Shown one piece after another: positions 36,598-57,352 of a DNA stretch of 64,000 nt. Location: assembly GCA_020444265.1 (NCBI GenBank), contig JAHLLH010000009.1, forward strand, positions 8,427 to 72,426. The letters are read 5' to 3'. Position 1 is the first letter of the stretch. Each line of letters begins with the position of its first letter. Source of the DNA: a bacterium (GTDB lineage: Bacteria; Electryoneota; Electryoneia; Electryoneales; Electryoneaceae). Made by a program: the position numbers and the translations under genes. The notes beneath the pieces are model-generated. The model was not told where the DNA came from, made no database searches, and saw nothing but the letters and a program-made list of their open reading frames with translations.

Positions 36598-37683
36598 TTA
36601 GGCGGACACTGCGAAGAATTGGCCGGGGAGCATTGCCTGCTCAAGGGTGAAGCTCTCGTTCAGGCTGGGAGTTGAGTCTTCTGAGCTCGGGGACGCGGGA
36701 ATCGATTGGGATTGATAGGCGCTTGCGACACGAGCATAGGGGTTGGAGCCTGTCGTGGAAGGCGCGGCATTCTTCTGCTCGTCGTTCTTCGGAACGATGA
36801 ACTCCCCATCCTCGCCTGCTTTTCTTTCTTCGACTTCGGACGCAGGCTGATGACCCATGCTGACGCGGGCTTCATCAGACCCTTGCTGGGCGATTTCCTG
36901 ACGTGCTTCGGCGGCGACACGATTGGCCTTGTTGGCGACTGCACGATCTTGGCCGGAGGGCTCGGCGGGGGCGAGGGCGGCGCGAGCTGCCTGTTCCGCC
37001 TGCCGTAACCGTTCTTCCGGTGTATCCCCACCAAAGCTGATGTTCACATCGCCGGCGACGGCGTAGTGGTGGCCATCCGGACCACGTTCCGTCTCGAAGT
37101 TCGCGCCGCCGTTTGCAAGGGATCCGGCAGCGGCGAGGTGGGCCTGTTCGTGGGCACGCACTTCCAGATCGCGCGCCTTCATCTCCTGCACGTCTTTCTT
37201 CTCGTCCTCGCTCAACTCACCGTTGAACGATTCCGAGCCGGTCTGCGAGGAGTCCTCGTCGCTTTCCTGCGGCTGGCTGACACCGGCGACTGCACCGCTG
37301 GGCTGGCCAGGATGCGGGGATTCGTCAGAGGTGGGTGAGCTTTCCCCGTGCGCATGGGATGATGTCTGGCTGCTCTGCGGTGTGAAGCCATTCGGTGATG
37401 GAACAGGGCGTTCTGCCGCCGTGAGGGGATCGTTCGCCTTGTTCTGCTCGATCTGGCCGATGTTCTGTGGTTGACGTGCCAACGCGAGGGCTTCGCTGGA
37501 GAGTTCGGTGCGGTCGCTGTAGGTGCAGCAGGAGAAGCCAGACTGGCCACACTTCGGGCAGACATTGGACTCCTCCGCAGGACGTCCCGTCAACCCGGAG
37601 AGCAGCGCACCGTTCCGGATCACTACCGCCGGACCGTTGACCTGCACTCCGTTCGTGTGTGCTTCCACTCTCACCAGCTTCAC
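36598..37683 (-). CDS. Low-complexity protein with an N-terminal Cys cluster and a VRAHEQAHLAAAG...GPDGHHYAVAGDVNISFG motif (putative HExxH metalloprotease-like, SprA-related-type)
   Basis: An HEQAH motif is followed by a GPDG...YAV.GDV block. The sequence is rich in S/P/Q/E/A, and CPKCGQSGFSCC lies near the N-terminus. Confidence 0.4.
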   Translation of the reverse strand: MKLVRVEAHTNGVQVNGPAVVIRNGALLSGLTGRPAEESNVCPKCGQSGFSCCTYSDRTELSSEALALARQPQNIGQIEQNKANDPLTAAERPVPSPNGFTPQSSQTSSHAHGESSPTSDESPHPGQPSGAVAGVSQPQESDEDSSQTGSESFNGELSEDEKKDVQEMKARDLEVRAHEQAHLAAAGSLANGGANFETERGPDGHHYAVAGDVNISFGGDTPEERLRQAEQAARAALAPAEPSGQDRAVANKANRVAAEARQEIAQQGSDEARVSMGHQPASEVEERKAGEDGEFIVPKNDEQKNAAPSTTGSNPYARVASAYQSQSIPASPSSEDSTPSLNESFTLEQAMLPGQFFAVSA

Positions 37684-37888
37684 TCCTGCCGTTCAACAGC
37701 AATCAGGGCGCACTCCATCCCCTGGACAGAGTCCCCCCTCATCTTTCCTATCGGCGGAGTGGTTCGAGAGCTTGAGAGACGGGAGGAGAGATTCGGGGAC
37801 TGTATACAAAATCCGGGGTAGAAACGATTCCGTTCCCGAGACCGTTGGGTGCGAGATTTTGTATGCTGTTCCCGAATCGATGATAGGG

Positions 37889-40270
37889 CTATTTAATGAG
37901 AGTGATCTTCCTTGTCACCACTCTTGAGGAAGTTTCTAGTTTGATAAAATAGGAGCCTGTTGGCCAGGATGAAGCGTCGAGTCGAAGGTTGTAGACACCG
38001 GGCGTTTTTACAGCGTCCAGCAGAGTTGCCATTTCCCGTCCTTGAATATTGTACACCCTGACCTTAACCTTCTCGGTCTTTCCAATGGTGATGGAAATCC
38101 GAGTTTCCGAATTGAACGGATTCGGATAGGCTTGCAGAAGTGTGTGATCTTGTGGATGCAGTGGGATGACTTCATCATCGACCGATACAATTTGTGCCAC
38201 ATCCATGTACATCAAGCCGAGCGCGGTAGATACCCACACTTTTTCGCTGGCCTGATCGTACGTCAGTCCCCTGATTTTAATGAATTGATCGTAGTAGGGA
38301 AGCTCAGACTGATCCGTGTCAAGTCGTTCCCACTGATCCCCTTGATTGGAGACGAGATACATTCCCTCCCTAATATCGAAAGGATCTCCAATTCGTCTGG
38401 ATAGAAGAATATGCGAAGGTGATGTTGGAAGTAATGTAACGCTTGAGGGTTGAAAAATATAGCCTGCGGTCCTGTCCCAAATCCCCTCACTATGACGCCA
38501 CAGACTTCTTGATGCGAACACATAAAAGGATTGATCAGTCGTATCGGCGACTCCATGAATTGGCCAGAGCTGTAGTTGCTCTATCTCTGGGAAATCCATG
38601 TCCTGCCATGTGGCTCCAAAGTCCGTGCTGGAGAAGATGCCATTTGGTGCAAGTGCATAGAGTACATCATCGCCATAGGCGAAGGAGACGACAAATGCCC
38701 ACCCATCCGTTGTGATCCAGGTCTGTCCTGAATCGATCGAGACATCCGTCGTCCAGGATGATTCTAATTCACGGCTTAGCGCGATGATTGAACGATCCGC
38801 TGTCTCGAATAGATCAGGCACAAGCGTCATGCTAGCATGGTTTATACCCGGAGTAAGACTTGTTCCGTACTCGTCCCAGGAGGATCCATTGTCATAACTA
38901 ACGACTGGATGAACGGTTGTAAGTTCTGACTCGACAACGTGTTTTTCACAGAGAGATATTAATTTTGACTGATCTTCCAGAATGACAGGTAACGGGTATA
39001 CAAGAGTGTCGACGGATTCTGGTAAGAGTGAAATTCTCTGCCAATCATTCGTTTCCGATTCATAGAGGTACATCATTCTATCACGTTCACCCCTTGCTAC
39101 GATTCCATTCGTAATAATTTGAAAGTGCATCATTTTGCCAAAGGGAAGTCCAATATTAAATTCTTCCCAGCTGTTCCCGGAGTTATCTGAGGCCCATATC
39201 CCTCGATCCATTGAGCAGATGTACGTTGTTTCGGTATAGGAGTTAACCGAAATTCCTGCGATCACGTTCATGTCTGATGGAAGACCATTTGGATTTCGAG
39301 AAAAGGTTTCCGCGTAATCATTGCTTATGTATACTCCTCGCCCTGTGTTCAGGTAGATTGATCCCCTGACTAGTACAGTGCCATCAGCATGCGGGTCTTC
39401 CACAATTTGTTCAGATAAATTATTGTAGGGTAGGCCAGCATCTGCAGTCGTCCATGAATCCCCCCCATCCAGACTACGAAAGATGGAATCGCAGGCGAAG
39501 TATTCAAGGGGTGGGAACTCGTCATACGAGTGGGACGCCACGGCGACCAGATCACCATTTCCCAGGAAGGTCATGCTCTCAACGGCTGCGCCGGGATGGG
39601 TGATCAGGGTATCCAGATCAAACAGGGGAGACCAAGTCTGATTGAAGTCAGTGGACCTGTAAATGCCGAATTCACGATGTGAGCCAAGGGACAGTCCACT
39701 CAGGTAGAACGTGCTGTCTTGAACGGGATGACGGATAAAGGAAAGTTTCTGTTGGGAGTGATCATCATAGAGTGTGTTTGTCCATGTTTCACCGAAATCC
39801 TCCGAAATACAGATGAAGGCAGCGTTTGTAGCAATTAAGCGGTTGTGATTGTTTCTGTCCACGAGGAGATGATGACTGAGTGAACCCGCATCATGGACCG
39901 GAAAAATTGGATTCCAAGCTTCGCCGTTCATCGTACTAAAAGCCCAAGCCCAACGCTGAGCTGGCGAAAATGACATCATGGCAAAAACGGTGTCCGCATC
40001 TTGGTCGAACGCGACAATTTTGTGAGTTAATCCAATTTTAAATGACTGATCTGGATGAATAAGCTCATTTATCGGCTGCCAGCTCTGGCCAGCGTCATTG
40101 GATTCCCATATCCCTCCGTCTAACAAACCAACGTATTGTCGTGTTCCATCTTCGCTCATCGCAATGGATGAGAAGGCTGGAACAGGACCATTTGTGTTCG
40201 CCCAAGCATACACGGCGAGAGGGATAAGTAACAACGAGGAAAATCCACCAAATCTTAAGAGTCGTCGCAT
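37889..40270 (-). CDS. BNR/Asp-box repeat beta-propeller protein (sortilin/VPS10-like) with a T9SS C-terminal sorting domain, copy 1
   Basis: A signal peptide is present and at least nine S-x-D-x-G-x-(T/S)-W Asp-box repeats follow (SNDAGQSW, SEDFGETW, SLDGGDSW, ...). The C-terminus (YPNPFNSETRISIT...RKITLIK) matches the Por sorting-domain pattern. The product is 793 aa. Confidence 0.8.
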   Translation of the reverse strand: MRRLLRFGGFSSLLLIPLAVYAWANTNGPVPAFSSIAMSEDGTRQYVGLLDGGIWESNDAGQSWQPINELIHPDQSFKIGLTHKIVAFDQDADTVFAMMSFSPAQRWAWAFSTMNGEAWNPIFPVHDAGSLSHHLLVDRNNHNRLIATNAAFICISEDFGETWTNTLYDDHSQQKLSFIRHPVQDSTFYLSGLSLGSHREFGIYRSTDFNQTWSPLFDLDTLITHPGAAVESMTFLGNGDLVAVASHSYDEFPPLEYFACDSIFRSLDGGDSWTTADAGLPYNNLSEQIVEDPHADGTVLVRGSIYLNTGRGVYISNDYAETFSRNPNGLPSDMNVIAGISVNSYTETTYICSMDRGIWASDNSGNSWEEFNIGLPFGKMMHFQIITNGIVARGERDRMMYLYESETNDWQRISLLPESVDTLVYPLPVILEDQSKLISLCEKHVVESELTTVHPVVSYDNGSSWDEYGTSLTPGINHASMTLVPDLFETADRSIIALSRELESSWTTDVSIDSGQTWITTDGWAFVVSFAYGDDVLYALAPNGIFSSTDFGATWQDMDFPEIEQLQLWPIHGVADTTDQSFYVFASRSLWRHSEGIWDRTAGYIFQPSSVTLLPTSPSHILLSRRIGDPFDIREGMYLVSNQGDQWERLDTDQSELPYYDQFIKIRGLTYDQASEKVWVSTALGLMYMDVAQIVSVDDEVIPLHPQDHTLLQAYPNPFNSETRISITIGKTEKVKVRVYNIQGREMATLLDAVKTPGVYNLRLDASSWPTGSYFIKLETSSRVVTRKITLIK

Positions 40271-40396
40271 TTGTCTAATCCTATATATCCACCAAACGAA
40301 CAGTCATCGACGTATATACTATCTATTCGTGTGTACTGGATAAGCAACACTGAGAAATAGAATATGCACCTTTTTAACACGAATCTTCCAAATCAA

Positions 40397-40422
40397 CCAG
40401 GCGGTCTTTGAAGACCGCCTGG
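40397..40422 (-). terminator. Terminator hairpin (CCAGGCGGTCTT-TG-AAGACCGCCTGG) downstream of the small secreted-protein gene
   Basis: A 12-bp perfect stem is followed on the minus strand by TTGATTTGG. Confidence 0.6.
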
Positions 40423-40432
40423 TGATAAAATA

Positions 40433-40846
40433 CTAAATCGGGGGAAGTACATTTGCCCAAAGATGGTAGGCACCGCTCCAATTCGAAGCGCCAGCGATGC
40501 TAATCGTCCAATACTGACACCCACCATAGTTCACGCGGACAACATCAGACTGGGCAGGGTTACCATTGCTTGTGGCAGCAAAGCAATAGCCCTCTTCAAT
40601 GTCAGGCATTTTATACAGCGCCCCAGGCGTAAGGCAACCTGCCAGATTGCCAGTTCCTACAGTTCCAGGGACTATTTTGCCTTGACTATCCAATGAGCCG
40701 CCTAACGTGAGAAACGTGCTCGAGTTACTTCCTTGGCCAAGCGATAGGGTAACTGAATCTACGTTTTGCCAGCGTGCTTCCGCAGTTCCAGTGAAGCCAA
40801 TCAGCAAAAGGAGCACTGCCAGGAGTACAATTGCAGGATACTTCAT
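40433..40846 (-). CDS. Hypothetical small secreted protein (137 aa, 4 Cys) in a lower-GC stretch
   Basis: A signal peptide (MKYPAIVLLAVLLLLIGFTGTAEA) is present and no motifs were recognised. Local GC is visibly lower than the surroundings. Confidence 0.45.
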   Translation of the reverse strand: MKYPAIVLLAVLLLLIGFTGTAEARWQNVDSVTLSLGQGSNSSTFLTLGGSLDSQGKIVPGTVGTGNLAGCLTPGALYKMPDIEEGYCFAATSNGNPAQSDVVRVNYGGCQYWTISIAGASNWSGAYHLWANVLPPI

Positions 40847-41013
40847 GATTCACCTCATAGTGTGTTACAACTCATCGAGGCCAATTTCATTTCCGGCCGG
40901 AAGAGACCTCCTGTATAAACTGTTTACAAGTTCGGGGGGGGCAAGAGAAATGCGAGTTTAATGTAAAATAATAATTCAAGACTCCTCCCGGAGGAGATTC
41001 CATTCAACCGTAA

Positions 41014-41037
41014 CGCCCCTGCCTAGCGGCAGGGGCG
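41014..41037 (-). terminator. Terminator hairpin CGCCCCTGCC-TAGC-GGCAGGGGCG downstream of the YeeE-rhodanese gene
   Basis: The stem is a perfect 10 bp. A second small hairpin and a T-rich tract follow on the minus strand. Confidence 0.55.
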
Positions 41038-41065
41038 CAGAATCACCCGGGCAGTGCTTGCCAGA

Positions 41066-42241
41066 TCAGCAGCCGCCTTGGACCTTTTTGATGGTTGGGG
41101 GTGCGACATCGGTGGCGTCGGCCCGTTTCGCGATCTCGTCCAGTTTGCCACCATTGCGTAGGAAGAAGGTCCCCAACATGCCGTCGAGCTGGTCCGGGGT
41201 TTCCATTCCAGTATGGTAGAGGGCATACCCTTCAGTGTAGACCGCTTGACGTTTCGAGTCACCCAGTTCACGGCTGAGCACGGCTGCCTTACGGGCTTCT
41301 TCCTCCGTCGCTCCGTAAAAGAGGTACTCCTTGCCCGGCTCCCGCAGCACGGTACGCCATCTCGCGTCGGCCAGGGAGGCGAGGGGGATGTTCATCGCGG
41401 TGGCAATGTGACCGTTCTCGTAGGCCGCCTTGTCGCGGACGTCGATGATCTTCAGGCTGATGTCCTGCTCCAGCAAGCGCATTGCCACTTCCTCGAGCGG
41501 GATCGTTTCGATCTGCTGCGCTTTTACTTCCCAGCCATCATGGGCGATGGTCGCCAGCGCCTGGGATTTTTTATCCGTCATGACAATCAGGGCGGCGGCG
41601 AGGACGACGGCGACGGCAGCGTAAGCTGCGGGACGGGGCTGGGTCCAGAAGTGACGGATGGGTCGTTTGTTGACACGATCCTCGACAATGGTCGTCGCCG
41701 CGAAGGCAACAATTGCTACCACGGCCACCAGCAGGATGAAGAGGCCACGATTCATACCGAAGGCCTGCGGCACGGTGAGTGGGCCGTAGTTGTCCGCAAC
41801 GAGGAAGTCCGCGAAGAGGGGATAGGCTTCGAGGTAGCCGAAAATGCCGATCAGGGCGCCGAGGATGAAGACCATGCCGTCAATCCGTCCGATGGCCGCC
41901 GAGCAGACACTCGTGCCGGGGCAGAAGCCGCCAAGAATGAAGCCAACACCCATGATCGCCCCGCCGACAAGTGCAGATCGCAGGAAGAGGGGGTTGACGA
42001 AGATAAGGTCGAGGTTGATCAGACCGAAGGTGGCCAGCAGGCTGACCCCGACCATCGCGGTGACACCGGCGGTGAAGAAGACACGCAGCACGACGAAGTC
42101 ATAGCCGTAGAAAAGGCCTGCCAGCTTGCGCGAATCGGAGAAGCCAGCCTGCTCCAGGACAAACCCGAAGCCCATTCCGAGGAACAACGCAATCACCAGA
42201 TTCAGCTCGGGGCTGATCAGTTCAGGGAGATAAGGTCCCAT
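41066..42241 (-). CDS. YeeE/YedE family sulfur-compound (thiosulfate-type) transporter fused to a C-terminal rhodanese-like domain that lacks the catalytic Cys
   Basis: The polytopic N-terminal part carries the YeeE/YedE motif GGFCPGTSVCSAAIG. The C-terminal ~100 aa have the rhodanese fold (IIDVRDKAAYENGHIATAMNIP), but the active-site loop reads YGATEEEA where C-R-x-G is expected. Confidence 0.7.
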   Translation of the reverse strand: MGPYLPELISPELNLVIALFLGMGFGFVLEQAGFSDSRKLAGLFYGYDFVVLRVFFTAGVTAMVGVSLLATFGLINLDLIFVNPLFLRSALVGGAIMGVGFILGGFCPGTSVCSAAIGRIDGMVFILGALIGIFGYLEAYPLFADFLVADNYGPLTVPQAFGMNRGLFILLVAVVAIVAFAATTIVEDRVNKRPIRHFWTQPRPAAYAAVAVVLAAALIVMTDKKSQALATIAHDGWEVKAQQIETIPLEEVAMRLLEQDISLKIIDVRDKAAYENGHIATAMNIPLASLADARWRTVLREPGKEYLFYGATEEEARKAAVLSRELGDSKRQAVYTEGYALYHTGMETPDQLDGMLGTFFLRNGGKLDEIAKRADATDVAPPTIKKVQGGC

Positions 42242-42262
42242 GATATCCTCCAGGGGGTCAGG

Positions 42263-42781
42263 TTAGATCCACAATTTGCGGAAGAAGAAGGCCACGGCAT
42301 ACCCGCTGCCGAAGATGGCCATCATCGTTATGAAACCGCCCGCGCTCAGCACCGCCATCCCGGATAACGCTGCGCCGCTGGTGCAGCCGCGTGCGAACTG
42401 TGCGCCGATACCGAACAATGCTCCACCAATCAGGGCGAAGACGAGCCGTTTACGGGTGGTTGTGTTCGGGCCCTTGTTGGTGATGAAGCCGAGACGGTTG
42501 CTGATCAGGCCGCTGATGAAGCCGCCTGCAACCACTCCACCGAGAAGAAACACCAGCCAGGCCTTCAAGGGGGCCGGATGCGACTGGCTATACTCGGCGA
42601 AAAAGCTGGCTTTGTCCGCATGGGCAGGGGCTATCGTTTCGGTGATCGCAACAACGATGCTCTTCAGGGCCCCGCTCGCACCCAAGCCACGACCGGTGAC
42701 AAAGATGGTGGCGGTCAGCACCAGGCCGAGCAGCACACCAGCGAAATAGGGGTTCATGTAGGGACGAGGTTTGTCGTTCAT
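42263..42781 (-). CDS. YeeE/YedE family membrane protein (single-repeat half-size form)
   Basis: The YeeE/YedE motif (GAQFARGCTSGAALSGMAV) is present on a ~170-aa hydrophobic protein. The start was chosen at MNDKPRPYMNPYFAG. Confidence 0.65.
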   Translation of the reverse strand: MNDKPRPYMNPYFAGVLLGLVLTATIFVTGRGLGASGALKSIVVAITETIAPAHADKASFFAEYSQSHPAPLKAWLVFLLGGVVAGGFISGLISNRLGFITNKGPNTTTRKRLVFALIGGALFGIGAQFARGCTSGAALSGMAVLSAGGFITMMAIFGSGYAVAFFFRKLWI

Positions 42782-42785
42782 GAGA

Positions 42786-43508
42786 TTACTCCTTCGCGTC
42801 GACTGCAAGGACGCCGACTTCTGCGCCTGTGACGGCTTGTTCTCCGTTCGTGGCGATTGCATGCGCCAGCGCAGCCTGGTTCGGATGCTGTTGCAACTCT
42901 TCCTCATCTTCCAGCTCTTCATACCCGGTGATCATCGCCTTCAGGTTGGACAGGACGGTGGTTCCGGTGGTGATGAGGTAGAGATGAGCGATGAGGAAGG
43001 CGGCCAGAGCGAAGGCTCCGATGGTGTGGACCACGGCAACCACTTCCAGCCCACCGATGTTCAGGGTTCCCATTCCCCCAGCCTGCGGGTAGCGGTAAAA
43101 CATGTAGAGCAGGCCGCTGGTCACCATGACCGGGATGACAAGAACCTTGAGGCCGAGGTAAACCAGACGCTGCAACGGGTTCAGCTTGCTCAGTTCCGTC
43201 TTGTGATGCGGGTGCGGTGCATGTTTAAAGATGCCGGTCAGGTAGAAGGCGATCTGGGCACGCAGGTTCTGACGGGTCGGCAGGTACTGACGCCATTCGC
43301 CGGTGGCATAGTGCCAGAAGATGGCGAAGACAATCAGCCCGATGAAGAGATAGGCCGCGATGTTGTGGTAGTGGACGGCATTCTCAAAGCCCATGAAACT
43401 GTACGAGCTGTGGATCTCAAAACCGGTCAGCATCAGGAATCCGATCAGCACGGCTTGCATCCAGTGCCAAAACCGCTCGAAGCTCTTGTAAATTTTGACG
43501 ACTCTCAT
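42786..43508 (-). CDS. Dihaem cytochrome b membrane subunit (Ni/Fe-hydrogenase / FdnI-type cytochrome b, HydC-like)
   Basis: The RxxHW motif (FERFWHWMQA) is present with four TM helices carrying conserved His (HYHNIAAY, HLYL). Its ATG overlaps the TGA of the octaheme gene (TGATG). Confidence 0.75.
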   Translation of the reverse strand: MRVVKIYKSFERFWHWMQAVLIGFLMLTGFEIHSSYSFMGFENAVHYHNIAAYLFIGLIVFAIFWHYATGEWRQYLPTRQNLRAQIAFYLTGIFKHAPHPHHKTELSKLNPLQRLVYLGLKVLVIPVMVTSGLLYMFYRYPQAGGMGTLNIGGLEVVAVVHTIGAFALAAFLIAHLYLITTGTTVLSNLKAMITGYEELEDEEELQQHPNQAALAHAIATNGEQAVTGAEVGVLAVDAKE

Positions 43509-45079
43509 CAGGATTCCCTCCTGTCACGTGCCCATGCAAAGAGACGGACGCTCATGTGGACAAGCACACCGATGATGCTGAGGATCAGGATTGTGCGGCC
43601 CATGAATTCCACCGAAGCGTGCGAGTCACGGCCCGGCATGTAGAAATCGGTAAGGTTGGCAAGACGGCCATTGTCAGGCGTATGGCACTCTTCACAGCTG
43701 ACAGCTTCGTCCGCCTTCGATACCATGTGGTTCACCGGCCAGTACATCTCTGTTTCAACAAAGCAGAAGTTGCCGCTGTAGGGCGCGCCCACATGTTCCA
43801 TGCCCAGTTTCGCCGCGATGTCCCAGTCGAAGTCCTGCCAGTAGCCACCTTCACCCTTCTTCTCTGCGAAGAGTTTCGGCTGGATGATCATGTTGTTTTC
43901 GCAGTCGAATATCTGCTTGGCACGGTGAATCTTCACCGGGATGATTTTCGCATCAGGGTCTGCATAATCGCCGTACAGCGTGTTCATCTTGACCACTTCC
44001 ATCGGGTCGATCACATCGCCGAGGAAATAGTGGTCCGCCGTGCCGTTGAACCAGGTGTACTCCGGCTCGAGGTTCTTTTCCCAGGTGAATTCGCCCTTGA
44101 TCGAGAGGTAGGTGTGGTTGCCATCCTCATCTTCCTCGTGGAAGGGTTCGCCATCCTTTAGACGGCCCGCTTTCGACCAGTCCCAGGAGGTCTTGGTCGC
44201 ATTGACCTTTGCGTAGACCGGGATGTGGCAGGTCTGGCAGGCGACCTTGAGGGTGTGCTCGTTCAGGATGTTTTTCGCGTGCGGTTCGCTGGTATGGCAC
44301 TGGTCGCACGTTACACGGTCCCGGTTCATCGAAGAAACGGAGTAAAGCTTGCCGCTGATCTGGTGCTTGTCGGTGACATGGCAGGCGGTGCAGTTCATGT
44401 CGGTGCCGTCATAGCCCATGTGGACATCAACATCCTGGCCCGAGGTAAGCAAGGCTTCCTCGAGGTCTCCATGTTTGACATTGTTCCCACCACCTGAATA
44501 GAAGTGGCAGGCACCGCAGTTGTCCTTCTCAGGAACTCCGACCGACCGCGCTGCGACACCGAGATCGACAGTCGCCATCGGGTAACCTGCGCCACCGCTC
44601 GCCTTGACATAGGTATCGGACTGATCATGGCAGATGAGGCAGTCAATGTTCTCCTCCACCTCGAAGTCGAAACCGGTGTCAGTCCAGCCATAGCCGGCAT
44701 GGCACTTGGTGCAACTTGTTTCCGACCCGCCAATGCCGATGCAGAAGTTGTTGATTAGATTTTTTTTCCCCACTTCGGTAATGCCACGGCCCGGGATGTA
44801 GGCTTCGCGATCCCAGTTCCAGTGGTTGGATGCCATCACCTCATGGTGACGTTCCGTGTGGCAGGAGATGCAGGTACGTGTGACATCTTGGGGACGCTCA
44901 AACGTTCCCTGCAATGCGGCCAGCTTCGCATGGTCAACACTGGCAATGTGCGGTTTGCTGTGGTCGGCACGAAGCTCTTCCAGGTTGCCTGTGCCCACGG
45001 GAGTGAAGGGGAATTCCATCACCACGAGGATCGCAATCGCAACCGCGAGGAAAAAGAGAACCTTGATGGGCCGGATCAT
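43508..45079 (-). CDS. Octaheme c-type cytochrome with a signal peptide and a C-terminal transmembrane anchor
   Basis: Eight CxxCH motifs were counted (CISCH, CTKCH, CLICH, CGACH, CTACH, CDQCH, CQTCH, CEECH). An N-terminal signal/anchor (MIRPIKVLFFLAVAIAILVV) and a C-terminal hydrophobic helix (RTILILSIIGVLVHMSVRLFAW) are present. Confidence 0.85.
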   Translation of the reverse strand: MIRPIKVLFFLAVAIAILVVMEFPFTPVGTGNLEELRADHSKPHIASVDHAKLAALQGTFERPQDVTRTCISCHTERHHEVMASNHWNWDREAYIPGRGITEVGKKNLINNFCIGIGGSETSCTKCHAGYGWTDTGFDFEVEENIDCLICHDQSDTYVKASGGAGYPMATVDLGVAARSVGVPEKDNCGACHFYSGGGNNVKHGDLEEALLTSGQDVDVHMGYDGTDMNCTACHVTDKHQISGKLYSVSSMNRDRVTCDQCHTSEPHAKNILNEHTLKVACQTCHIPVYAKVNATKTSWDWSKAGRLKDGEPFHEEDEDGNHTYLSIKGEFTWEKNLEPEYTWFNGTADHYFLGDVIDPMEVVKMNTLYGDYADPDAKIIPVKIHRAKQIFDCENNMIIQPKLFAEKKGEGGYWQDFDWDIAAKLGMEHVGAPYSGNFCFVETEMYWPVNHMVSKADEAVSCEECHTPDNGRLANLTDFYMPGRDSHASVEFMGRTILILSIIGVLVHMSVRLFAWARDRRES

Positions 45080-45711
45080 GATGCCCTCCCGGCAGGACCG
45101 TCCGTCTTGGCATCGGTCGTTGGGTTGTTGTATTCGTGGCAAAGCGATTCCAGACGGTCTCGCGAATCGTTCAAGGTCTCTTCGATCGCTACGCGGCAGG
45201 GATCACTTTCGCTCAAGGATGACTGAAGGGTTTCGAGGATGCTGTCAGCCTGTCCCATCCAATCACGGACCTGAGTGAGGACCTGCTGACGGTTGCTGTT
45301 TCGCTCGATCACAACACTCTCGATGCAGCCGCGCGCATGCAGGATGAGGTGATTGACCAGGGTGTCACGCGGGATCTCGTGGCTCTTGGACAAGTCGTTC
45401 AGCATCTGGACCGAGGAACGTTGCAGCACGAGGTTTTTGCGCTGGTTGTAGGCGGTACGGTCGCCGCTCTCGGTCGTTTCGATGCGCTGAAGTATGTCCC
45501 GGACACAGGAGTCGCTGTCCGCACCGATCTTGTTTGGGGCGAGGTCGCTTAGGGCAAGCTCAGCGATGTCACGCGCCTGCACCCCGACCTCTTCGCCCAA
45601 CCAGTTCAGCGCCTCAATCGCTTCCTCGGTCAGGGTGAACGTGGTCCGGACTTCCGGCTCACGTTTCTGGTCCAACAGGGTGCTGAACAGCTCTTTGGTT
45701 GCCATGTTCAT
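45076..45711 (-). CDS. Hypothetical cytoplasmic protein, first gene of the cytochrome operon
   Basis: The 211-aa product has no signal peptide and no recognisable motifs. Its stop overlaps the octaheme start by 4 nt. Confidence 0.45.
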   Translation of the reverse strand: MNMATKELFSTLLDQKREPEVRTTFTLTEEAIEALNWLGEEVGVQARDIAELALSDLAPNKIGADSDSCVRDILQRIETTESGDRTAYNQRKNLVLQRSSVQMLNDLSKSHEIPRDTLVNHLILHARGCIESVVIERNSNRQQVLTQVRDWMGQADSILETLQSSLSESDPCRVAIEETLNDSRDRLESLCHEYNNPTTDAKTDGPAGRAS

Positions 45712-46006
45712 GGTCTACCTACCCGTATTGTGATTTTCTGCACATAAGGTACGTGCAATGAATACGTGAAATCAAGTGCATACTCGGCAGGTGGAGTATA
45801 CGCGATTGTCCGTGTAAAGGAGTCAATGTGGGTAAGGGCGAACGGGGAATAGTGGGAAAATAAAATTGAGGACGAACTAACATTTTTTCATCGAGATTGT
45901 AACACCTTTCACATAATAGGGTTAAGGAAGATTAGTGGGTTCAAGAGGAGGCCTAACCTGATGATGAGGGACGGCTTGGTTGATCGAGGTCGGTGGTGAT
46001 ACACAC

Positions 46007-46044
46007 GAAAAACGGAGAGCCTCCGGTTGACTCGGGAGGCTCCC
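46007..46044 (-). terminator. Rho-independent terminator (GAGCCTCC...GGAGGCTC followed by TCCGTTTTT on the minus strand) after BNR gene copy 2
   Basis: The hairpin and a T5 run lie 40 nt after the stop at 46087. Confidence 0.7.
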
Positions 46045-46086
46045 TGTGATGCCTGGTGAAAGGTGTTGAACTGGTGATGCGGTAGC

Positions 46087-48468
46087 CTACTGAACCAGCA
46101 CGGTTTTCCTCGTGATCTCCCCGACTGGGGTGTGCAAGCGGAGGAAATAGGTACCCGAAGGCCAGTCGTTGGCATCGAGGGTGGTCGTATGATCGCCCGC
46201 TTGCAGGGACTCATTCAACAGAGTAGTAACAAGCCGTCCCTGGAGATCAAATACCGACAACGTGACTTCCGTTGCTTCGGGTACGTTGAACTGGATGCGT
46301 GTATGGCCATTGAACGGATTCGGGTATGCGTCCAGCAGGAGGTGTGAGGAGGGTTGGGCTGGAGATGGGTCTTCGTTGACTCCCACAATGTTCTCGATAT
46401 CCGTATGGACCAGGCCCAGCGGAGTGGAAAGCCAGAGTTGCTCACGCCAGGGGTCGTACTGGACGTTGGTCACGGAGGTGTACTGTTCTTCAAAATAGGG
46501 CGGCATGTTCGCTCTGCCGAAATTGCTCCAGTTCTCCCCACCATCCTGGCTGATGTACATGTTGGTGGGTTGTTGGTTGTTCTGCACGAGTCGTACCAGG
46601 CGGGATGGTGTCCCGGGGATCAGTGCCAATCCTGCTGTAGAACCTGGAGCTGGCCCGAGATCGTTCCAGCCGTTTTCATCGAACCGATAGGTCACATCTC
46701 GTACGATCACATACAGGTCACCGTTCGCGGGATTGATCTCGATGAAGTCCCTGGCTTGGCTGAGATCGTCCGGATGCGGGAAGAAGAGGTTCCCCCAGTG
46801 GAGGCCATTTGTGGTTGAACGAAACACACCATCTCTGTTCACGGCATAGAGCACAGAATCGTTCTGGCAGGTCCTGCTGTACCAGGACCAACCCTCATAG
46901 CTGTTCCAGGTTCGACCAGTATCGACACTCACATCCACAGAAAAGTGATCGGAATCCACCCATCTTGAGATAACCAGACGAAGAAGTGAGGAATCCTGGT
47001 ACACGGACAAGTAAGGGTCGTGCAGGTTGGCGGCGGAGGCTGCTGGAAGTGGGGGGTGAAGCGGCTGTGGTTCGGGATGATCGGGAGTGCTGACCATAGA
47101 CTGGATTTCTCCAGTCGAATCCCCCCGTATCGAGGTCGCTTCAAAGGTGATCGTCCGATCCTCATCCTCGATCAGGAGTGGCAAGGCGAAGCGCACGGAA
47201 TCCGTGGTCGAAGGACGCACAGGGAGCGGCGCCCATTCCTCTTCACCAGAACTGTATGTCGAACCAACCGCGTCTGCCCAGCCTCGCGCAAGAATCCGTT
47301 CTTCCTCGACCGTGAACATTTGCAGACGACCCCTATCAAAACCGGTATCGAACGGTTCCCAGTTTTCGCCACCGTCCATCGTCTGCCAGGCACCATGGCT
47401 GTATGAGGATAACACCGCAACGCCTGTCGATTCATTGATGTCCACATTGCTGACATGGTTCATGCTGAGGGGAAGCCCATTCTCCACCCGTTCAAATGTC
47501 AGGCCATCGTCGAGCGACTGGTAGAGTCCCATACCGATCCAGGTGTCCGCTTCTTGCCAGAGATAGAGTCGGTCGGAGACAGGATCCTGGGCCATCTGGA
47601 ACCCAAAGGCCCGTCGCGGAAGTCCCTCTTCGACGATGGTCCAGTTGTAGCCGCCGTCCTCAGTTCTGAACAACCCATTGAAGCGCACCTGTTCATAGGG
47701 AAACAATCCATTGTACATTGTACGAGCGGATAACAGGATCGTACCGGATTGAAGGACAATCATGTCGGAAAAGAAGGCGTTTTCGAATCCGGTCAACGTG
47801 TCGCTTCGCATCATTTGAGACCAGATGTGCCCATCACTGTCCGAGATGAACGCTCCTGCATCATAGAAGCTCGAGAAACGGTCTGCAGCGGTGTAAAAGA
47901 GGTCCCCATTCGAAGGGTGCTGAACAAGATCGCCCACCACCCAGGGGGTTAAATCCAAGCTGTGTGTTTCCCATGTTTCACCGAAGTCCAAGGAATTCGC
48001 GACATTGGCTGCGGTCAGGTAGAGAAGATGATCCGGATCGGTCCAGTCCGAAAGCAGGAAATGATTGCCGGAACCGACCTCGGGAATGGGGTTGACCCAG
48101 GTCCAGCTCTCACCGGAGGTGGATGTGATCGCGTGATCATACGACCGGAGGTCGGTGAAGCTGGCCTGAACGATCAGCGAGTCCAGGTCAGGATCAATCG
48201 GGTCGAGTTTGTGGACGAGCTTTACATGGGGATTTGCATGTTCCGTAAGGGGTTCATTCGCGGGTAGCCACGTTTCGCCGCCATCCTCACTCTGCCACAA
48301 ACCACCCTGGTAGAGGGCGATGATCAGACGATCCCCATCCACATCGGTCAGGATAGAGCGGTATTCCGCAGAAGGGCCGGGAAGGGTTTCCCATGAGAAG
48401 CTGTGAACAGGAACGAGAAAGCATGCCAGGAGAAGCAATTTTAGAACGGGTTTCATCGTTGACCTCAT
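46087..48468 (-). CDS. BNR/Asp-box repeat beta-propeller protein with a T9SS C-terminal sorting domain, copy 2 (793 aa paralogue)
   Basis: The architecture matches 37889..40270 (SEDGGETW, SLDFGETW, TEDGGYNW, ...). The C-terminus (YPNPFNGHTRIQFN...RKTVLVQ) matches the Por sorting-domain pattern, and the length is identical. Confidence 0.8.
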   Translation of the reverse strand: MRSTMKPVLKLLLLACFLVPVHSFSWETLPGPSAEYRSILTDVDGDRLIIALYQGGLWQSEDGGETWLPANEPLTEHANPHVKLVHKLDPIDPDLDSLIVQASFTDLRSYDHAITSTSGESWTWVNPIPEVGSGNHFLLSDWTDPDHLLYLTAANVANSLDFGETWETHSLDLTPWVVGDLVQHPSNGDLFYTAADRFSSFYDAGAFISDSDGHIWSQMMRSDTLTGFENAFFSDMIVLQSGTILLSARTMYNGLFPYEQVRFNGLFRTEDGGYNWTIVEEGLPRRAFGFQMAQDPVSDRLYLWQEADTWIGMGLYQSLDDGLTFERVENGLPLSMNHVSNVDINESTGVAVLSSYSHGAWQTMDGGENWEPFDTGFDRGRLQMFTVEEERILARGWADAVGSTYSSGEEEWAPLPVRPSTTDSVRFALPLLIEDEDRTITFEATSIRGDSTGEIQSMVSTPDHPEPQPLHPPLPAASAANLHDPYLSVYQDSSLLRLVISRWVDSDHFSVDVSVDTGRTWNSYEGWSWYSRTCQNDSVLYAVNRDGVFRSTTNGLHWGNLFFPHPDDLSQARDFIEINPANGDLYVIVRDVTYRFDENGWNDLGPAPGSTAGLALIPGTPSRLVRLVQNNQQPTNMYISQDGGENWSNFGRANMPPYFEEQYTSVTNVQYDPWREQLWLSTPLGLVHTDIENIVGVNEDPSPAQPSSHLLLDAYPNPFNGHTRIQFNVPEATEVTLSVFDLQGRLVTTLLNESLQAGDHTTTLDANDWPSGTYFLRLHTPVGEITRKTVLVQ

Positions 48469-48671
48469 GACTTATAAAACCGTCGAGCCATGCAAACGAG
48501 TTGCAACAATCAGATTGTTCGTCTTCATAGGGGTAGGTTTAAAATACAACATGCCGGATTTGATTGGTAGGGTGCGAGGGTAGGAACCTCAATTCTTTCA
48601 TTTCGATACGGTATTGAAGCACCCGATTCGGCTGCTTACTTTGCCAGCCAGTTTGTTGATCCGTTACTCAA

Positions 48672-49883
48672 TTGGGGATCTTTTTGTCACACTACAATAC
48701 TCTATCCGGCACATTCTCGTGGCGGGATGATAAAATCGAATGGCCGGTGACATCGGATGTCGGGCCGGGACTCGAGGGAGTGATCGCGAGTGATACTGCT
48801 GTCTCATGGCTTGATCCGACCAGCGGCAGTCTCTCCTACCGTGATGTGCCCATTGAACGGCTTGCTGGGATACGCAGCTTTGAAGAAGTCGCCTACCTGC
48901 TGATTACCGGGGATCGTGACCGTGAAGAGGATGAACTTGCAGCCTTCCGGAGCCGACTCCGCTCCAGCCGCGCCCTGCCTAACGAAGTGGTCCAGCTGAT
49001 TCGTTCGCTTGACCCCTTGATTCATCCGACTCGTTTGCTTCGTGCCGGCGTCTCCGTACTTGGTTGCCATGAGTTGAGTGGCGATGAGGACATGAGCGGG
49101 GAACGTCACTGGCGGGAGTTGCGTGTTGTTGGCCAGGTAGCGGCGTTGGTCAGCGAGATCGCACGCCACCGTGCCGGAAGCGAGGAGCACCAGTACGATG
49201 AGCGGCGCAGCCTGGCCGAGTGCATGCTGGTTGCGTTGCTGGACCGTCCGCCTGAGCCGATCGAAGTGGAAACCCTCGACATGCTCTGGGTATTGTACGC
49301 TGATCATGGCCTCGATGCTCCGACCTTCACCTCGATGATTGTAGCCAGTACCCTCGCCGATCCCTACTACAACGTGGTCGCAGGGCTGTCCGCGTTGCGT
49401 GGCCCACGTTTGGGAGGTGCGGGGGAACAGGTGCTCGAGCAGATTCTTGATCTGGCCGATGAAGTTTATGCGGTGGATTGGGTGCATGAGATGGTAGAGA
49501 AGGGCGGCCGGATTGCCGGGTTCGGGCACCGGATCTACCACATGCCCGATCCTCGAGTCGTCATCCTTCGTAAGCAGATGGCAACCCTTGCACGAGCGCG
49601 TGGACGTGGTGAACTGTTTACCATCGCACGAGCGGTCGAAGAAACCGCCACTGCCCTGCTGGCGCACAAAGGCATCCATGTCAACATCAACTTCTATGCT
49701 GCGTTGCTGTTCCACCTCCTCGGTGCGGACGGCCCGCTGGTGCCAGTGATGTATGTGGTCGGGCGCATGGCCGGGTTGGTGGCACGTGTCCACGAAGCTC
49801 TCGAAAATCCAAAGCTCTATCGTCCCCTGAGCCAATACCTCGGCACTCCGGATCGCGAGATGGACCAGGGAGGTGTGGAATGA
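48672..49883 (+). CDS. Citrate synthase family protein, divergent paralogue (HGGAN motif replaced by RLGGAG)
   Basis: The citrate synthase signature GFGHRIYHMPDPRV is present. The position that aligns with the catalytic-His motif reads ALRGPRLGGAGE. The N-terminal start is uncertain. Confidence 0.65.
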   Translation: MGIFLSHYNTLSGTFSWRDDKIEWPVTSDVGPGLEGVIASDTAVSWLDPTSGSLSYRDVPIERLAGIRSFEEVAYLLITGDRDREEDELAAFRSRLRSSRALPNEVVQLIRSLDPLIHPTRLLRAGVSVLGCHELSGDEDMSGERHWRELRVVGQVAALVSEIARHRAGSEEHQYDERRSLAECMLVALLDRPPEPIEVETLDMLWVLYADHGLDAPTFTSMIVASTLADPYYNVVAGLSALRGPRLGGAGEQVLEQILDLADEVYAVDWVHEMVEKGGRIAGFGHRIYHMPDPRVVILRKQMATLARARGRGELFTIARAVEETATALLAHKGIHVNINFYAALLFHLLGADGPLVPVMYVVGRMAGLVARVHEALENPKLYRPLSQYLGTPDREMDQGGVE

Positions 49884-56755: not shown

Positions 56756-56908
56756 ATGTGTGGTCCTTATCTGCAAGCTCCTTGATCCAGAGCACCTATC
56801 GTCTCCGGTCTCCATTCCCGATTGAGCTACCAGTCAAGCAGAATCGGCAAGCAACGTCGTATCGTACGGTACGACGTAAGGAGGTCCTAACTAGGGAGGG
56901 TGCTGCGA

Positions 56909-57298: not shown

Positions 57299-57352
57299 AT
57301 AAAAACGGCCAGGTCAAAAGAGCTGGCCGACTGCTTTGCTACCCATCAAACC

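What the first reader, a model, noticed from the sequence alone, without database searches (positions are those of the whole stretch)
37889..48468. Approximately 6 kb island bounded by two paralogous 793-aa BNR-repeat T9SS proteins, with a GC drop
Two genes of identical length (793 aa) and the same architecture (Asp-box beta-propeller plus T9SS CTD) lie on the same strand at 37889..40270 and 46087..48468. They bracket the small low-GC secreted-protein gene and the cytochrome/YeeE operon. The first copy and the small gene look visibly AT-richer than the flanking genes. This pattern would fit a duplication-mediated insertion or a horizontally acquired island, but that interpretation is inferred.
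Basis: partly seen in the sequence, partly recalled or inferred. Interest (0 to 1): 0.55.

Follow-up and report, generated by a model that had tools for sequence, protein, structure and literature searches.

The report
Variable secreted-propeller genes around a sulfur operon
The two look-alike 793-aa genes are ancient, very divergent copies of a secreted double-propeller protein that sit in a gene-content hot spot, and the variable, probably acquired pieces are these propeller genes, not the sulfur-respiration operon between them.

Summary
In detail: there are two 793-aa ORFs at the stated coordinates with the same strand and architecture, and a GC drop over the first copy and the small gene next to it. 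The proposed model does not hold. The copies share 29% amino-acid identity, 41% codon-aligned nucleotide identity and no exact word longer than 15 nt, so they cannot have mediated an insertion. Each has a closer relative in another genome. In the nearest relative found (L026, flanks 88-94% identical at protein level) the operon p211-Otr-cyt b-YeeE-YeeE/rhodanese sits in the same place. The same operon core is a widespread portable unit elsewhere, without BNR neighbours. Three things vary. (1) A 3.2 kb low-GC two-gene cassette, the small secreted protein p137 plus BNR-1 (37779..41011), is replaced by 27 bp in L026. Its closest homologue is the same two-gene unit beside an IS30-like transposase. 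(2) The propeller part of BNR-2 is 41% identical to its positional counterpart, with saturated synonymous sites, which indicates allele replacement. (3) L026 has two further cassettes on the other side of the SprA-related gene. In more distant relatives the whole 11 kb is absent. This is an ordinary flexible-genome hot spot for T9SS cargo. It is of moderate interest only.

The parts
37684..48671 (-). Lineage-specific block of eight same-strand genes between the SprA-related gene and citrate synthase 1. It is absent in the relatives L007 and L009, where those two genes are adjacent and divergent.
   Evidence: tblastn synteny and ORF lists
37779..41011 (-). Window-specific 3,233-bp low-GC two-gene cassette (p137 + BNR-1). 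The close relative L026 has 27 bp (8907-8933) at this site.
   Evidence: blastn breakpoints, junction alignment and sequences, GC3 0.47
37889..40270 (-). BNR-1: 793-aa secreted Asp-box double beta-propeller with a T9SS type A C-terminal sorting domain. Its closest relative is P0319 (42%).
40433..40846 (-). p137: small protein with a signal-peptide-like N-terminus and no family hit. It is homologous (35%, E 1e-9) to the small ORF upstream of P0319 in L111, so it is the partner gene of the cassette.
40990..41000 (-). Left copy of the imperfect direct repeat GAATCTCCTCC at the cassette junction.
   Evidence: chance about 1%, suggestive only
37782..37794 (-). Right copy of the imperfect direct repeat GAATCTCTCCTCC at the cassette junction.
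37790..37878 (-). 89-nt inverted repeat (24-nt arms) just after the BNR-1 stop, inside the cassette's right end. It forms a stable hairpin and is probably the terminator of BNR-1.
   Evidence: the repeat finder pair I1; fold -33.6 kcal/mol, z -3.4
41014..41038 (-). G+C-rich terminator-like hairpin after YeeE/rhodanese, conserved in L026. It marks the end of the operon and the left edge of the cassette insertion site.
41066..42241 (-). YeeE/YedE C-terminal half fused to a rhodanese domain (391 aa).
   Evidence: Pfam Sulf_transp + Rhodanese; 90% identical to L026
42263..42781 (-). YeeE/YedE-family half-transporter (172 aa).
   Evidence: 94% identical to L026
42786..43508 (-). Membrane cytochrome b (Ni_hydr_CYTB, PhsC-like), the presumed quinol-oxidising anchor.
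   Evidence: 94% identical to L026
43508..45079 (-). Octahaem c-type cytochrome of the tetrathionate reductase (Otr) family, with 8 CxxCH motifs.
   Evidence: TIGR04315 582 bits against a cut-off of 375; 92% identical to L026
45076..45711 (-). p211: cytoplasmic-looking 211-aa protein of unknown function, overlapping the Otr start. 90% identical in L026; a 30% homologue sits upstream of Otr in L027/L028.
46087..48468 (-). BNR-2: paralogous double-propeller T9SS cargo (probably 789 aa, starting at 48456) and a separate transcription unit.
46507..48588 (-). Hyper-divergent segment of the BNR-2 locus (promoter-proximal region plus residues 1-653). There is no detectable nt similarity to L026, and 4-fold sites are saturated (0.31 against 0.28 by chance).
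46087..46506 (-). C-terminal 140 codons of BNR-2, including the T9SS tail. Their synonymous divergence (0.53) matches the backbone's.
36598..37683 (-). SprA-related (PF12118) backbone gene at the pivot of the variable region. Cassettes lie upstream of it in the window and downstream of it in L026. Its C-terminal ~90 aa are also diverged.
48672..49883 (+). Citrate synthase 1, the conserved backbone gene on the other flank.

Best explanation
The region between the SprA-related gene and citrate synthase is a gene-content hot spot made of three modules with different histories. It is not one island bracketed by a duplicated gene.

(1) The core operon, p211-Otr-cytochrome b-YeeE-YeeE/rhodanese, is widely distributed and portable. 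It most likely oxidises quinol at the cytochrome b and reduces tetrathionate or a related sulfur or nitrogen oxyanion at the periplasmic octahaem enzyme. The split YeeE/rhodanese would then take up and handle the thiosulfate-type product. That function is inferred from family membership. The operon is resident: it lies in the same place, at about 90% identity, in the nearest relative.

(2) BNR-2 is a T9SS-secreted double Asp-box propeller transcribed on its own. Its propeller part is an anciently diverged allele at a conserved locus. This is best explained by homologous replacement with crossovers in the promoter region and near codon 650.

(3) p137 + BNR-1 is a self-contained two-gene cassette: a small secreted protein plus a double-propeller T9SS cargo, with its own 3' hairpin. 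It has low GC, is absent from the nearest relative, and was most likely added to the intergenic spacer between the operon terminator and the SprA-related promoter. It may have been added by a mobile-element-assisted or microhomology-mediated event.

BNR-1 and BNR-2 are old paralogues within one lineage-specific clade. Their similar size and domain order reflect family architecture, not a recent duplication.
For: Shown directly:
- The paralogues share 29% aa identity, 41% nt identity and 28% identity at third positions, with no repeat longer than 15 nt.
- An exhaustive search finds about 90 full-length family representatives. BNR-1's best hit is P0319 at 42%. In the tree, BNR-1+P0319 and BNR-2+r785 each get 200/200, the four together 181/200, and BNR-1+BNR-2 as sisters 0/200.
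- In L026 the flanks and operon are 88-94% identical at protein level, but the BNR at BNR-2's position is 41% identical.
- At 4-fold sites, BNR-2 residues 1-653 are 0.31 identical against 0.60 for the pooled neighbours (Fisher p 2e-9). The C-terminal 140 codons are 0.53 identical and indistinguishable from the neighbours.
- The breakpoints are clean: 3,233 bp in the window against 27 bp in L026.
- Cassette GC3 is 0.47 against 0.657 +/- 0.068. L026's own two cassettes are also low in GC (0.50-0.55).
- p137 is homologous to the small ORF upstream of P0319. That pair sits next to an HTH_38+rve transposase and is also lower in GC than its host. The small ORF + BNR pairing recurs in L112-116.
- Otr-cyt b-YeeE-YeeE/Rhd are collinear in 35 of 42 metagenome loci with enough upstream sequence, and also in L027-L030, with no BNR neighbour.
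- L007 and L009 have SprArel directly next to CS1.
- Hairpins follow BNR-2, the operon and BNR-1.
- Otr passes the TIGR04315 cut-off and has 8 CxxCH motifs.
- The independent assembly agrees.
Against: - The polarity of every indel is unresolved. No outgroup carries the sites, so loss of p137+BNR-1 in L026, or loss of the 11 kb in the L007/L009 lineage, is as parsimonious as gain.
- The window contains no integrase, transposase or tRNA.
- The flanking direct repeat is short and imperfect, with about 1% chance expectation.
- The divergence profile across BNR-2 is graded rather than a sharp step, and the C-terminal estimate rests on 49 sites.
- Only one close relative (L026) exists in the collections searched.
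- The functions of the BNR proteins, p137, p211 and the operon are inferred from families, not tested. The structure model is only moderately confident (pLDDT 67).
Confidence: 0.75

Rival explanations
1. One reading: a recent duplication of the BNR gene created two direct repeats that captured or bracket a 6 kb inserted island (the cytochrome/YeeE operon).
For: The two genes have the same strand, the same domain order and nominally identical ORF length.
Against: Identity is 29% aa and 41% nt, third positions are saturated, and the longest shared word is 15 nt. Each copy has a closer relative elsewhere, and they are never sisters in 200 bootstraps. The operon is conserved in place in L026 and has normal GC3. 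The equal length depends on the start-codon call, 789 against 793 aa.
Confidence: 0.03
2. Differential loss with no horizontal input. The whole 11 kb, including several BNR cassettes, was ancestral. L007/L009 lost it, L026 lost p137+BNR-1, and the window lost the two cassettes downstream of SprArel. Low GC and extreme divergence are intrinsic to this fast-evolving, weakly expressed gene family.
For: No mobility gene, tRNA or clear att site is present in the window. Parsimony cannot polarise the indels. Another T9SS cargo gene in the window is also low in GC (17933..20599, GC3 0.523). All four members of the sub-clade belong to one lineage-specific group.
Against: The synonymous saturation of the BNR-2 propeller part, against 0.60 identity in the neighbours, cannot come from protein-level fast evolution. 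Even allowing 20% chance matches, p = 5e-7. BNR-2 and r785 have ordinary GC3 (0.635-0.655), so low GC is not a family property. Family members deviate from host GC in both directions in other loci. The nearest cassette homologue sits beside a transposase. The Otr operon occurs in unrelated contexts.
Confidence: 0.17
3. Functional coupling: the BNR/T9SS propellers and p137 are accessory parts of the Otr/YeeE sulfur system, for example surface capture of a sulfur substrate, and are kept next to it by selection.
For: All eight genes are on one strand. BNR-2 sits next to p211-Otr in both the window and L026.
Against: None of the 35 collinear operon loci, nor L027-L030, has a BNR-family neighbour. 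Family members P0319, P0321, P0322 and P0324 lie in unrelated contexts without Otr. Terminator-like hairpins separate the units. In L026 the cassettes lie beyond the SprA-related gene.
Confidence: 0.04
4. Artefact: a chimeric MAG contig or mis-assembly joins a lower-GC organism's BNR gene to this genome.
For: There is an abrupt GC change at 37.8-40.9 kb.
Against: The same order is found in an independently assembled 80 kb Logan contig recovered in 6 samples. The junctions fall in intergenic spacers, with intact flanking sequence homologous to L026 on both sides.
Confidence: 0.01

Closest known systems
Replacement and additive flexible genomic islands (Lopez-Perez, Martin-Cuadrado & Rodriguez-Valera 2014, PMC4033161)
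   Same: A fixed chromosomal site between conserved genes carries genes for exposed or secreted structures. These genes have the same kind of function but very divergent sequence in related genomes (BNR-2 against r785: 41% against about 90% in the flanks). Synonymous divergence is raised, which points to exchange by homologous recombination. Neighbouring spots gain or lose cassettes (p137+BNR-1; L026's two cassettes).
   Different: The published examples compare strains of one species, with sharp SNP peaks at the boundaries. Here the two genomes are only about 83% identical in nt, so boundaries are blurred and the event is old. The cargo is a T9SS double propeller rather than O-antigen, flagellar or pilus glycosylation clusters. 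Surface exposure is inferred, not shown.
T9SS type A CTD cargo proteins of the Bacteroidota/FCB group (TIGR04183 / PF18962)
   Same: An N-terminal signal-like segment, a functional domain, and a C-terminal ~75-residue sorting beta-sandwich that scores above the curated cut-offs.
   Different: The passenger is an uncharacterised ~690-residue Asp-box double propeller. The host is an unclassified, poorly sampled lineage. Secretion and anchoring are untested.
GH74 xyloglucanases (e.g. 2cn3, 5fkt, 6p2k)
   Same: These are the best structural and profile matches. They share two tandem Asp-box beta-propellers of similar overall size (Foldseek E about 5e-19; profile E 1e-45).
   Different: Identity is 12-16% and TM only 0.34-0.40 on a moderate-confidence model. 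The profile alignments are out of register (N-propeller to C-propeller), so this is repeat-level similarity. The catalytic Asp pair could not be placed. There is no carbohydrate-utilisation gene context.
PorZ of Porphyromonas gingivalis (5m11; PMC5121618)
   Same: The architecture is identical: two beta-propellers plus a canonical T9SS CTD, about 780 residues, exported by the T9SS itself.
   Different: The fold match is weak (rank 31, TM 0.26), and PorZ is not among the 60 best of 101 profile hits to solved structures. PorZ is a conserved single-copy machine component, whereas these genes are multi-copy, hyper-variable and dispensable between close relatives.
Octahaem tetrathionate reductase Otr of Shewanella (TIGR04315; Mowat et al. 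2004 and Atkinson et al. 2007, as cited in PMC11237559)
   Same: The central cytochrome passes the family cut-off (582 against 375 bits) and has eight CxxCH motifs.
   Different: Here it is embedded in a conserved cluster with a cytochrome b and a split YeeE/rhodanese. The substrate (tetrathionate, nitrite or hydroxylamine) is not determinable from sequence.

Membership tests
T9SS type A CTD cargo | C-terminal Por_Secre_tail sorting domain above the curated cut-off | tested here: met
   PF18962 scores 42.6 and 49.2 bits (cut-off 27). TIGR04183 scores 48.7 and 46.4 bits (cut-off 23) for BNR-1 and BNR-2. The beta-sandwich at residues 723-791 is the best-predicted part of the model.
T9SS type A CTD cargo | N-terminal Sec signal peptide | tested here: inconclusive
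   Hydrophobic N-termini are visible by eye (MRRLLRFGGFSSLLLIPLAVYAW; MKPVLKLLLLACFLVPVHSFSW). No signal-peptide predictor was available.
T9SS type A CTD cargo | Host encodes the T9SS machinery, and the protein is secreted and anchored | not testable with these tools
   Only 64 kb of the genome is held. Five CTD-bearing proteins in the window suggest that a T9SS is present.
GH74 glycoside hydrolase | Two seven-bladed beta-propellers forming a substrate cleft | tested here: inconclusive
   The top Foldseek hits are GH74 (E about 5e-19) but with TM 0.34-0.40, on a model of pLDDT 67. Asp-boxes recur every ~45-55 residues from residue ~55 to ~645.
GH74 glycoside hydrolase | Conserved catalytic aspartate pair in register with characterised enzymes | tested here: inconclusive
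   Profile hits to GH74 chains are significant (1e-45) but out of register (query 61-295 to chain 506-726), so the catalytic positions cannot be mapped.
PorZ (T9SS component) | Sequence relationship to PorZ and conserved single-copy status | tested here: not met
   There is no PorZ hit in NCBIfam, and PorZ is not among the 60 best of 101 profile hits to solved structures. The fold match is rank 31 with TM 0.26. Two to three divergent copies occur per genome, with presence/absence between close relatives.
Sortilin/Vps10 domain | Full-length ten-bladed Vps10 propeller with the 10CC module | tested here: not met
   PF15902 passes its score cut-off (68.7 and 52.2 against 33), but each stretch covers only about 110 of 446 profile positions. 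The similarity is at Asp-box blade level.
Octahaem tetrathionate reductase family (TIGR04315) | Full-length match above the curated cut-off, and eight haem-binding motifs | tested here: met
   581.8 bits against a cut-off of 375, profile positions 1-440 of 440. Eight CxxCH motifs.
Classical integrative genomic island | Integrase or transposase gene within or next to the island | tested here: not met
   No such domain was found in any island ORF or any other large ORF of the window. Only the homologous cassette in L111 has an adjacent HTH_38+rve gene.
Classical integrative genomic island | Insertion at a tRNA/tmRNA gene | tested here: not met
   ARAGORN finds no tRNA or tmRNA in the 64 kb.
Classical integrative genomic island | Flanking direct repeats | tested here: inconclusive
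   An imperfect 11/13-bp repeat lies at both junctions of the 3.2 kb cassette, with one related copy at L026's empty site. About 1% of random site pairs do as well.
Classical integrative genomic island | Deviant base composition | tested here: met
   This holds for p137+BNR-1 only: GC3 0.47 against 0.657 +/- 0.068. It does not hold for the operon or BNR-2.
Replacement flexible genomic island | Same locus and same kind of gene in related genomes, but far more divergent than the flanks, with excess synonymous change | tested here: met
   BNR-2 against r785 is 41% aa, compared with 88-94% in the flanks. 4-fold identity is 0.31 against 0.60, p 2e-9.
Replacement flexible genomic island | Encodes an exposed cell-surface structure | not testable with these tools
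   This is inferred from the T9SS CTD only.
Known anti-phage defence systems (PADLOC) | Any island protein matching a defence-system model | tested here: not met
   There are no hits for BNR-1, BNR-2, p137, p211 or SprArel.

The most novel reading that the evidence does not exclude
The small secreted ~135-aa protein and the ~780-aa double-propeller T9SS cargo form a previously undescribed, horizontally exchanged two-component surface module. The two partners co-diversify (35% and 42% identity between the window and L111 pairs). The module is swapped or added at hot spots under diversifying pressure such as phage or predator recognition. This would give T9SS-bearing lineages a cassette-based system of surface variation.
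Probability: 0.2. Interest if true: 0.55.

Novelty: new member of a known kind. Interest (0 to 1): 0.33.

Why it matters
It corrects the reading of the locus. The respiratory sulfur operon is a stable resident, and the flanking secreted-propeller genes are what turns over. If the pattern holds more widely, T9SS cargo genes behave in uncultured FCB-type lineages as O-antigen or pilin loci do in well-studied bacteria. They would be sites of allele replacement and cassette gain or loss, so they would be poor markers of vertical descent and possible determinants of phage or predator susceptibility or of substrate specificity. The recurrent pairing with a small secreted partner gives a concrete, testable handle on a large family of propeller proteins that are usually annotated only as 'photosystem II stability/assembly factor-like' or 'T9SS sorting domain-containing'. 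The Otr-cyt b-YeeE-YeeE/rhodanese cluster is also a widespread gene association that could guide work on what Otr enzymes do physiologically.

Tried and rejected
- Recombinogenic repeats between the two BNR genes: searched with the repeat finder, blastn at word size 7 and an exact k-mer scan. Nothing longer than 15 nt was found.
- Word-indexed homologue searches for BNR-1 and BNR-2 found only self-hits plus relatives at 26% or less, and missed the true family. The exhaustive HMMER search was needed.
- The genome-contig scan with citrate synthase found no close relative (best 64%), but it did give the empty-site relatives L007 and L009.
- The metagenome scan with the SprA-related protein found nothing. 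The scan with YeeE/Rhd found no close relative (best 48%) and was useful only for operon statistics.
- tRNA or integrase as an insertion target: none.
- Conserved terminal repeats or att-like ends shared by the window and L111 cassettes: none, only coding-region similarity. Intergenic pieces of the window and L026 cassettes share nothing significant.
- The direct repeat as proof of transposition was rejected as proof, since chance expectation is about 1%.
- Defence-system identity: no PADLOC hits.
- PorZ identity: rejected.
- GH74 catalytic assignment: not possible, because the alignments are out of register.
- The first tree run timed out. A first bootstrap had numerical problems with saturated distances and was repeated with a cap.
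- An integron attC-type site at the 89-nt hairpin was considered but not formally tested. No integron integrase is present.
Full report
OBSERVATION. Two ORFs of 793 aa lie on the minus strand at exactly 37889..40270 (BNR-1) and 46087..48468 (BNR-2). Both carry Asp-box/Sortilin-Vps10-type hits and a T9SS C-terminal sorting domain above the curated cut-offs. They align collinearly over their whole length. Six ORFs lie between them, all on the same strand:
- a 137-aa ORF (p137, 40433..40846) with no family hit;
- a YeeE-type half-transporter fused to rhodanese (41066..42241);
- a second YeeE half (42263..42781);
- a cytochrome b (42786..43508);
- an octahaem cytochrome that passes the TIGR04315 tetrathionate-reductase-family cut-off (582 against 375 bits) and has eight CxxCH motifs (43508..45079);
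- a 211-aa ORF (p211) that overlaps its start.

The GC drop is real. BNR-1 has GC 0.472 and GC3 0.474, and p137 has GC3 0.471. The mean GC3 of 48 window ORFs is 0.657 (sd 0.068). BNR-1 also has the most deviant codon usage of any long gene. BNR-2 (GC3 0.635) and the operon genes (0.72-0.755) are not deviant. An independent Logan assembly (80 kb contig, seen in 6 samples) has the same order, so the arrangement is not a chimera. The 'identical length' depends on start choice: NCBI and Logan call BNR-2 at 789 aa, and the alignment with its L026 counterpart favours that start.

THE TWO COPIES ARE ANCIENT PARALOGUES. They share 29% amino-acid identity (375 bits). At codon-aligned positions nucleotide identity is 41%, and 28% at third positions, which is saturated. 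The longest shared exact word is 15 nt, and no long direct repeat exists in 36.5-49.5 kb. Nothing here could support homologous recombination between the copies.

The word-indexed protein search found only self-hits. An exhaustive HMMER scan of 1.84 billion cluster representatives found about 90 full-length relatives (760-816 aa, E <= 1e-30), mostly at 24-31% identity. BNR-1's best relative is P0319 at 42%, not BNR-2. In a neighbour-joining tree of 32 members, BNR-1+P0319 and BNR-2+r785 (the L026 protein) are each supported 200/200. The four form a clade in 181/200 replicates, and BNR-1+BNR-2 are never sisters. Equal size and domain order are family properties. Asp-box motifs recur every ~45-55 residues from residue ~55 to ~645. 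The AlphaFold model (pLDDT 67) is all-beta with a well-predicted C-terminal sandwich. The best fold and profile matches are GH74 double-propeller xyloglucanases. The TM-scores are low and the sequence alignments are out of register, so only the architecture is shared.

COMPARISON WITH RELATIVES. The lineage is poorly sampled. The nearest citrate synthases among 185,579 species representatives are 64% identical. Two of those loci, L007 and L009, are about 75% identical to each other in nt. They share the backbone MacB-ABC-lactamase_B-SpoIIE-SpoIIE-SprA-related | citrate synthase 1-citrate synthase 2-...-OGDH-E2-LpdA with the window at 45-72% protein identity. In both, the SprA-related gene and citrate synthase 1 are adjacent and divergent. 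The whole 11 kb 37684..48671, including both BNR genes, is missing.

A much closer relative came from the Otr search: P0199, 92% identical, on a 30.6 kb Logan contig (L026). There CS1, p211, Otr, cytochrome b, both YeeE genes and the N-terminal part of the SprA-related protein are 88-94% identical to the window's. The operon sits in the same place next to a BNR gene and CS1. So the intervening genes are conserved in position in the nearest relative.

WHAT ACTUALLY VARIES. blastn between the window and L026 gives blocks of 80-84% identity interrupted at three places.

(a) Window 37779..41011 (3,233 bp: p137, BNR-1 and their spacers) corresponds to 27 bp in L026. On the left, homology runs through the conserved G+C-rich terminator hairpin after YeeE/rhodanese. 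On the right it resumes in the SprA-related upstream region. The segment is flanked by an imperfect direct repeat (GAATCTCCTCC / GAATCTCTCCTCC), and the empty site has one related copy. About 1% of random site pairs do as well, so this is only suggestive. An 89-nt hairpin (z -3.4) lies just after the BNR-1 stop, inside the segment.

(b) Window 46507..48588 (the BNR-2 promoter-proximal region and residues 1-653) has no detectable nt similarity to L026. The encoded proteins are 41% identical overall: 38% in this part and 61% in the last 140 residues.

(c) L026 has 6.5 kb between the SprA-related gene and SpoIIE where the window has 361 bp. This stretch carries two tandem 'small protein + BNR/T9SS' pairs (134+780 aa and 130+769 aa, 43-44% identical to each other). 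These belong to a distant branch that shares little more than the T9SS tail with BNR-1 and BNR-2. All these cassettes are low in GC3 (0.47-0.55) in hosts of about 0.65-0.75.

REPLACEMENT VERSUS FAST EVOLUTION AT BNR-2. I compared third positions of 4-fold codons at residues that are identical in both genomes. The neighbouring genes are 0.52-0.68 identical (pooled 0.60, 1,044 sites). BNR-2 residues 1-653 are 0.31 identical (122 sites; chance 0.28), Fisher p = 2e-9. The deficit remains (p = 5e-7) if one fifth of the identical residues are assumed to be chance matches. The C-terminal 140 codons are 0.53 identical (49 sites). They cannot be distinguished from the neighbours (p = 0.37) and differ from the N-part (p = 0.009). 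Protein-level selection cannot saturate synonymous sites, so the propeller part of the two alleles diverged long before the two genomes did. The simplest reading is exchange of a divergent allele by homologous recombination, with one crossover upstream of the gene and one near codon 650. The profile is graded rather than a step, as expected for an old event between genomes that are about 83% identical.

THE CASSETTE IS A TWO-GENE UNIT FOUND ELSEWHERE. P0319 lies on a 68.9 kb JGI contig (L111). It is immediately preceded by a 135-aa ORF and, divergently, by an HTH_38+rve (IS30-like) transposase gene. That small ORF is homologous to p137 (35% over 119 residues, E 1e-9). The L111 pair is also lower in GC (0.485) than the rest of its locus (0.564). 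A small ORF of 135-143 aa directly precedes the BNR gene in L112-114 (P0321) and L115/116 (P0322, with a Y1 transposase-like gene nearby), but not in L117 (P0324). Apart from p137 and the L111 ORF, those small ORFs are not significantly similar to one another. Cassette GC deviates from host GC in both directions across these loci. No non-coding ends are conserved between the window and L111 cassettes. The window has no integrase, transposase or tRNA, and no island protein matches a known defence system.

THE OPERON. Otr, cytochrome b, the YeeE half and YeeE/rhodanese are collinear in 35 of 42 metagenome loci with at least 6 kb upstream of the YeeE/rhodanese match. Most carry an extra gene of about 1.1 kb between cytochrome b and YeeE. 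They are also collinear in L027-L030, which have unrelated flanks. In none of these loci is a member of this BNR family adjacent. A terminator-like hairpin follows BNR-2, and a promoter-like site precedes p211. The operon is therefore an independent, portable unit. From family membership I infer, without a test, that it oxidises quinol at the cytochrome b and reduces tetrathionate or a related oxyanion at the periplasmic octahaem enzyme. Otr is reported to reduce tetrathionate and also nitrite and hydroxylamine (Mowat 2004 and Atkinson 2007, as cited in PMC11237559). The YeeE/rhodanese would then take up and handle a thiosulfate-type product.

INTERPRETATION. The locus is a gene-content hot spot at the SprA-related | citrate synthase junction with three modules of different age:
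- a resident portable operon;
- a replacement-type locus (BNR-2);
- an additive low-GC cassette (p137+BNR-1).

This matches the description of replacement and additive flexible genomic islands. In that description, loci for exposed structures hold very divergent versions in related genomes and are exchanged by homologous recombination, possibly under phage pressure (PMC4033161). Surface exposure here is inferred only from the T9SS tail.

The polarity of each indel is unresolved, because no outgroup carries the sites. Differential loss remains a rival (about 0.17). Synonymous saturation, composition, and the association with a transposase elsewhere favour exchange or gain. A functional link between the BNR proteins and the sulfur operon is unlikely given the survey. 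PorZ has the same two-propeller + CTD architecture (PMC5121618), but the weak matches and the dispensable, multi-copy nature of these genes argue against membership.

VERDICT. The suspicion of horizontal acquisition holds for a different unit, the 3.2 kb p137+BNR-1 cassette, and perhaps for the 11 kb block relative to distant relatives. This is a new example of a known kind of genome plasticity, in an uncultured T9SS-bearing lineage. The one open point of interest is the recurrent pairing of a small secreted protein with a double-propeller T9SS cargo. Interest 0.33.

Noticed in passing
window 56900..58897: A T9SS-tailed protein with Lcl_C domains (57353..58897, minus strand) and a 132-aa ORF lie between the 2-oxoglutarate dehydrogenase E2 gene (55393..56697) and lpdA (58881..60509). 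In the relative L007, E2 and lpdA are adjacent. This is a second case of T9SS cargo inserted into a conserved backbone.
   Followed up: partly
window 17933..20599: An 888-aa VWA + Kre9/CBM20-like protein with a T9SS tail is the only other long gene with clearly low GC (0.482, GC3 0.523). In all, five T9SS-tailed proteins occur in 64 kb: 14..1153, this one, BNR-1, BNR-2 and 57353..58897.
   Followed up: partly
window 48672..51001: Two tandem citrate-synthase paralogues (403 aa, and 373 aa overlapping by 4 nt) are conserved as a pair in loci labelled Calditrichaeota, Acidobacteriota, Thermoanaerobaculales, Thermodesulfobacteriota, Planctomycetaceae and others.
   Followed up: no
window 41066..42781; L027-L110: YeeE/YedE is split into two genes, a 172-aa half and a 391-aa half. 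In the window, L026 and L027-L030 the longer half carries a C-terminal rhodanese domain. Among the 84 YeeE/Rhd-matching loci (L027-L110), 26 align over at least 380 residues of it. The pair travels with Otr and cytochrome b. Most loci have an extra gene of about 1.1 kb between cytochrome b and YeeE that the window, L026 and L027-L030 lack.
   Followed up: partly
window 45076..45711: p211 has no signal peptide and no family hit, and it overlaps the Otr start codon. It is 90% conserved in L026, and a 30% homologue precedes Otr in L027/L028. Two stretches look like ribbon-helix-helix motifs by eye, so it may be a regulator of the operon. This was not tested.
   Followed up: no
window 36598..36882; L026 9823..10158: The C-terminal ~90 residues of the SprA-related protein are 44% identical between the window and L026, against 89% for the N-terminal 265. 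They lie right next to L026's 6.5 kb two-cassette insertion, so the breakpoint of that indel lies inside the gene.
   Followed up: partly
L002 and L029/L030: The distant family member P0122 (L002) and an Otr operon (L029/L030) both lie beside Tricorn/PD40 and MlaE-ABC transporter genes, in different orientations. This may be coincidence or may reflect related hosts.
   Followed up: no
L115 3907..5104; L116 474..1671: A Y1_Tnp-like (IS200/REP-associated type) 176-aa gene and an unrelated 135-aa ORF lie just upstream of the small ORF + P0322 cassette in two independent contigs.
   Followed up: no
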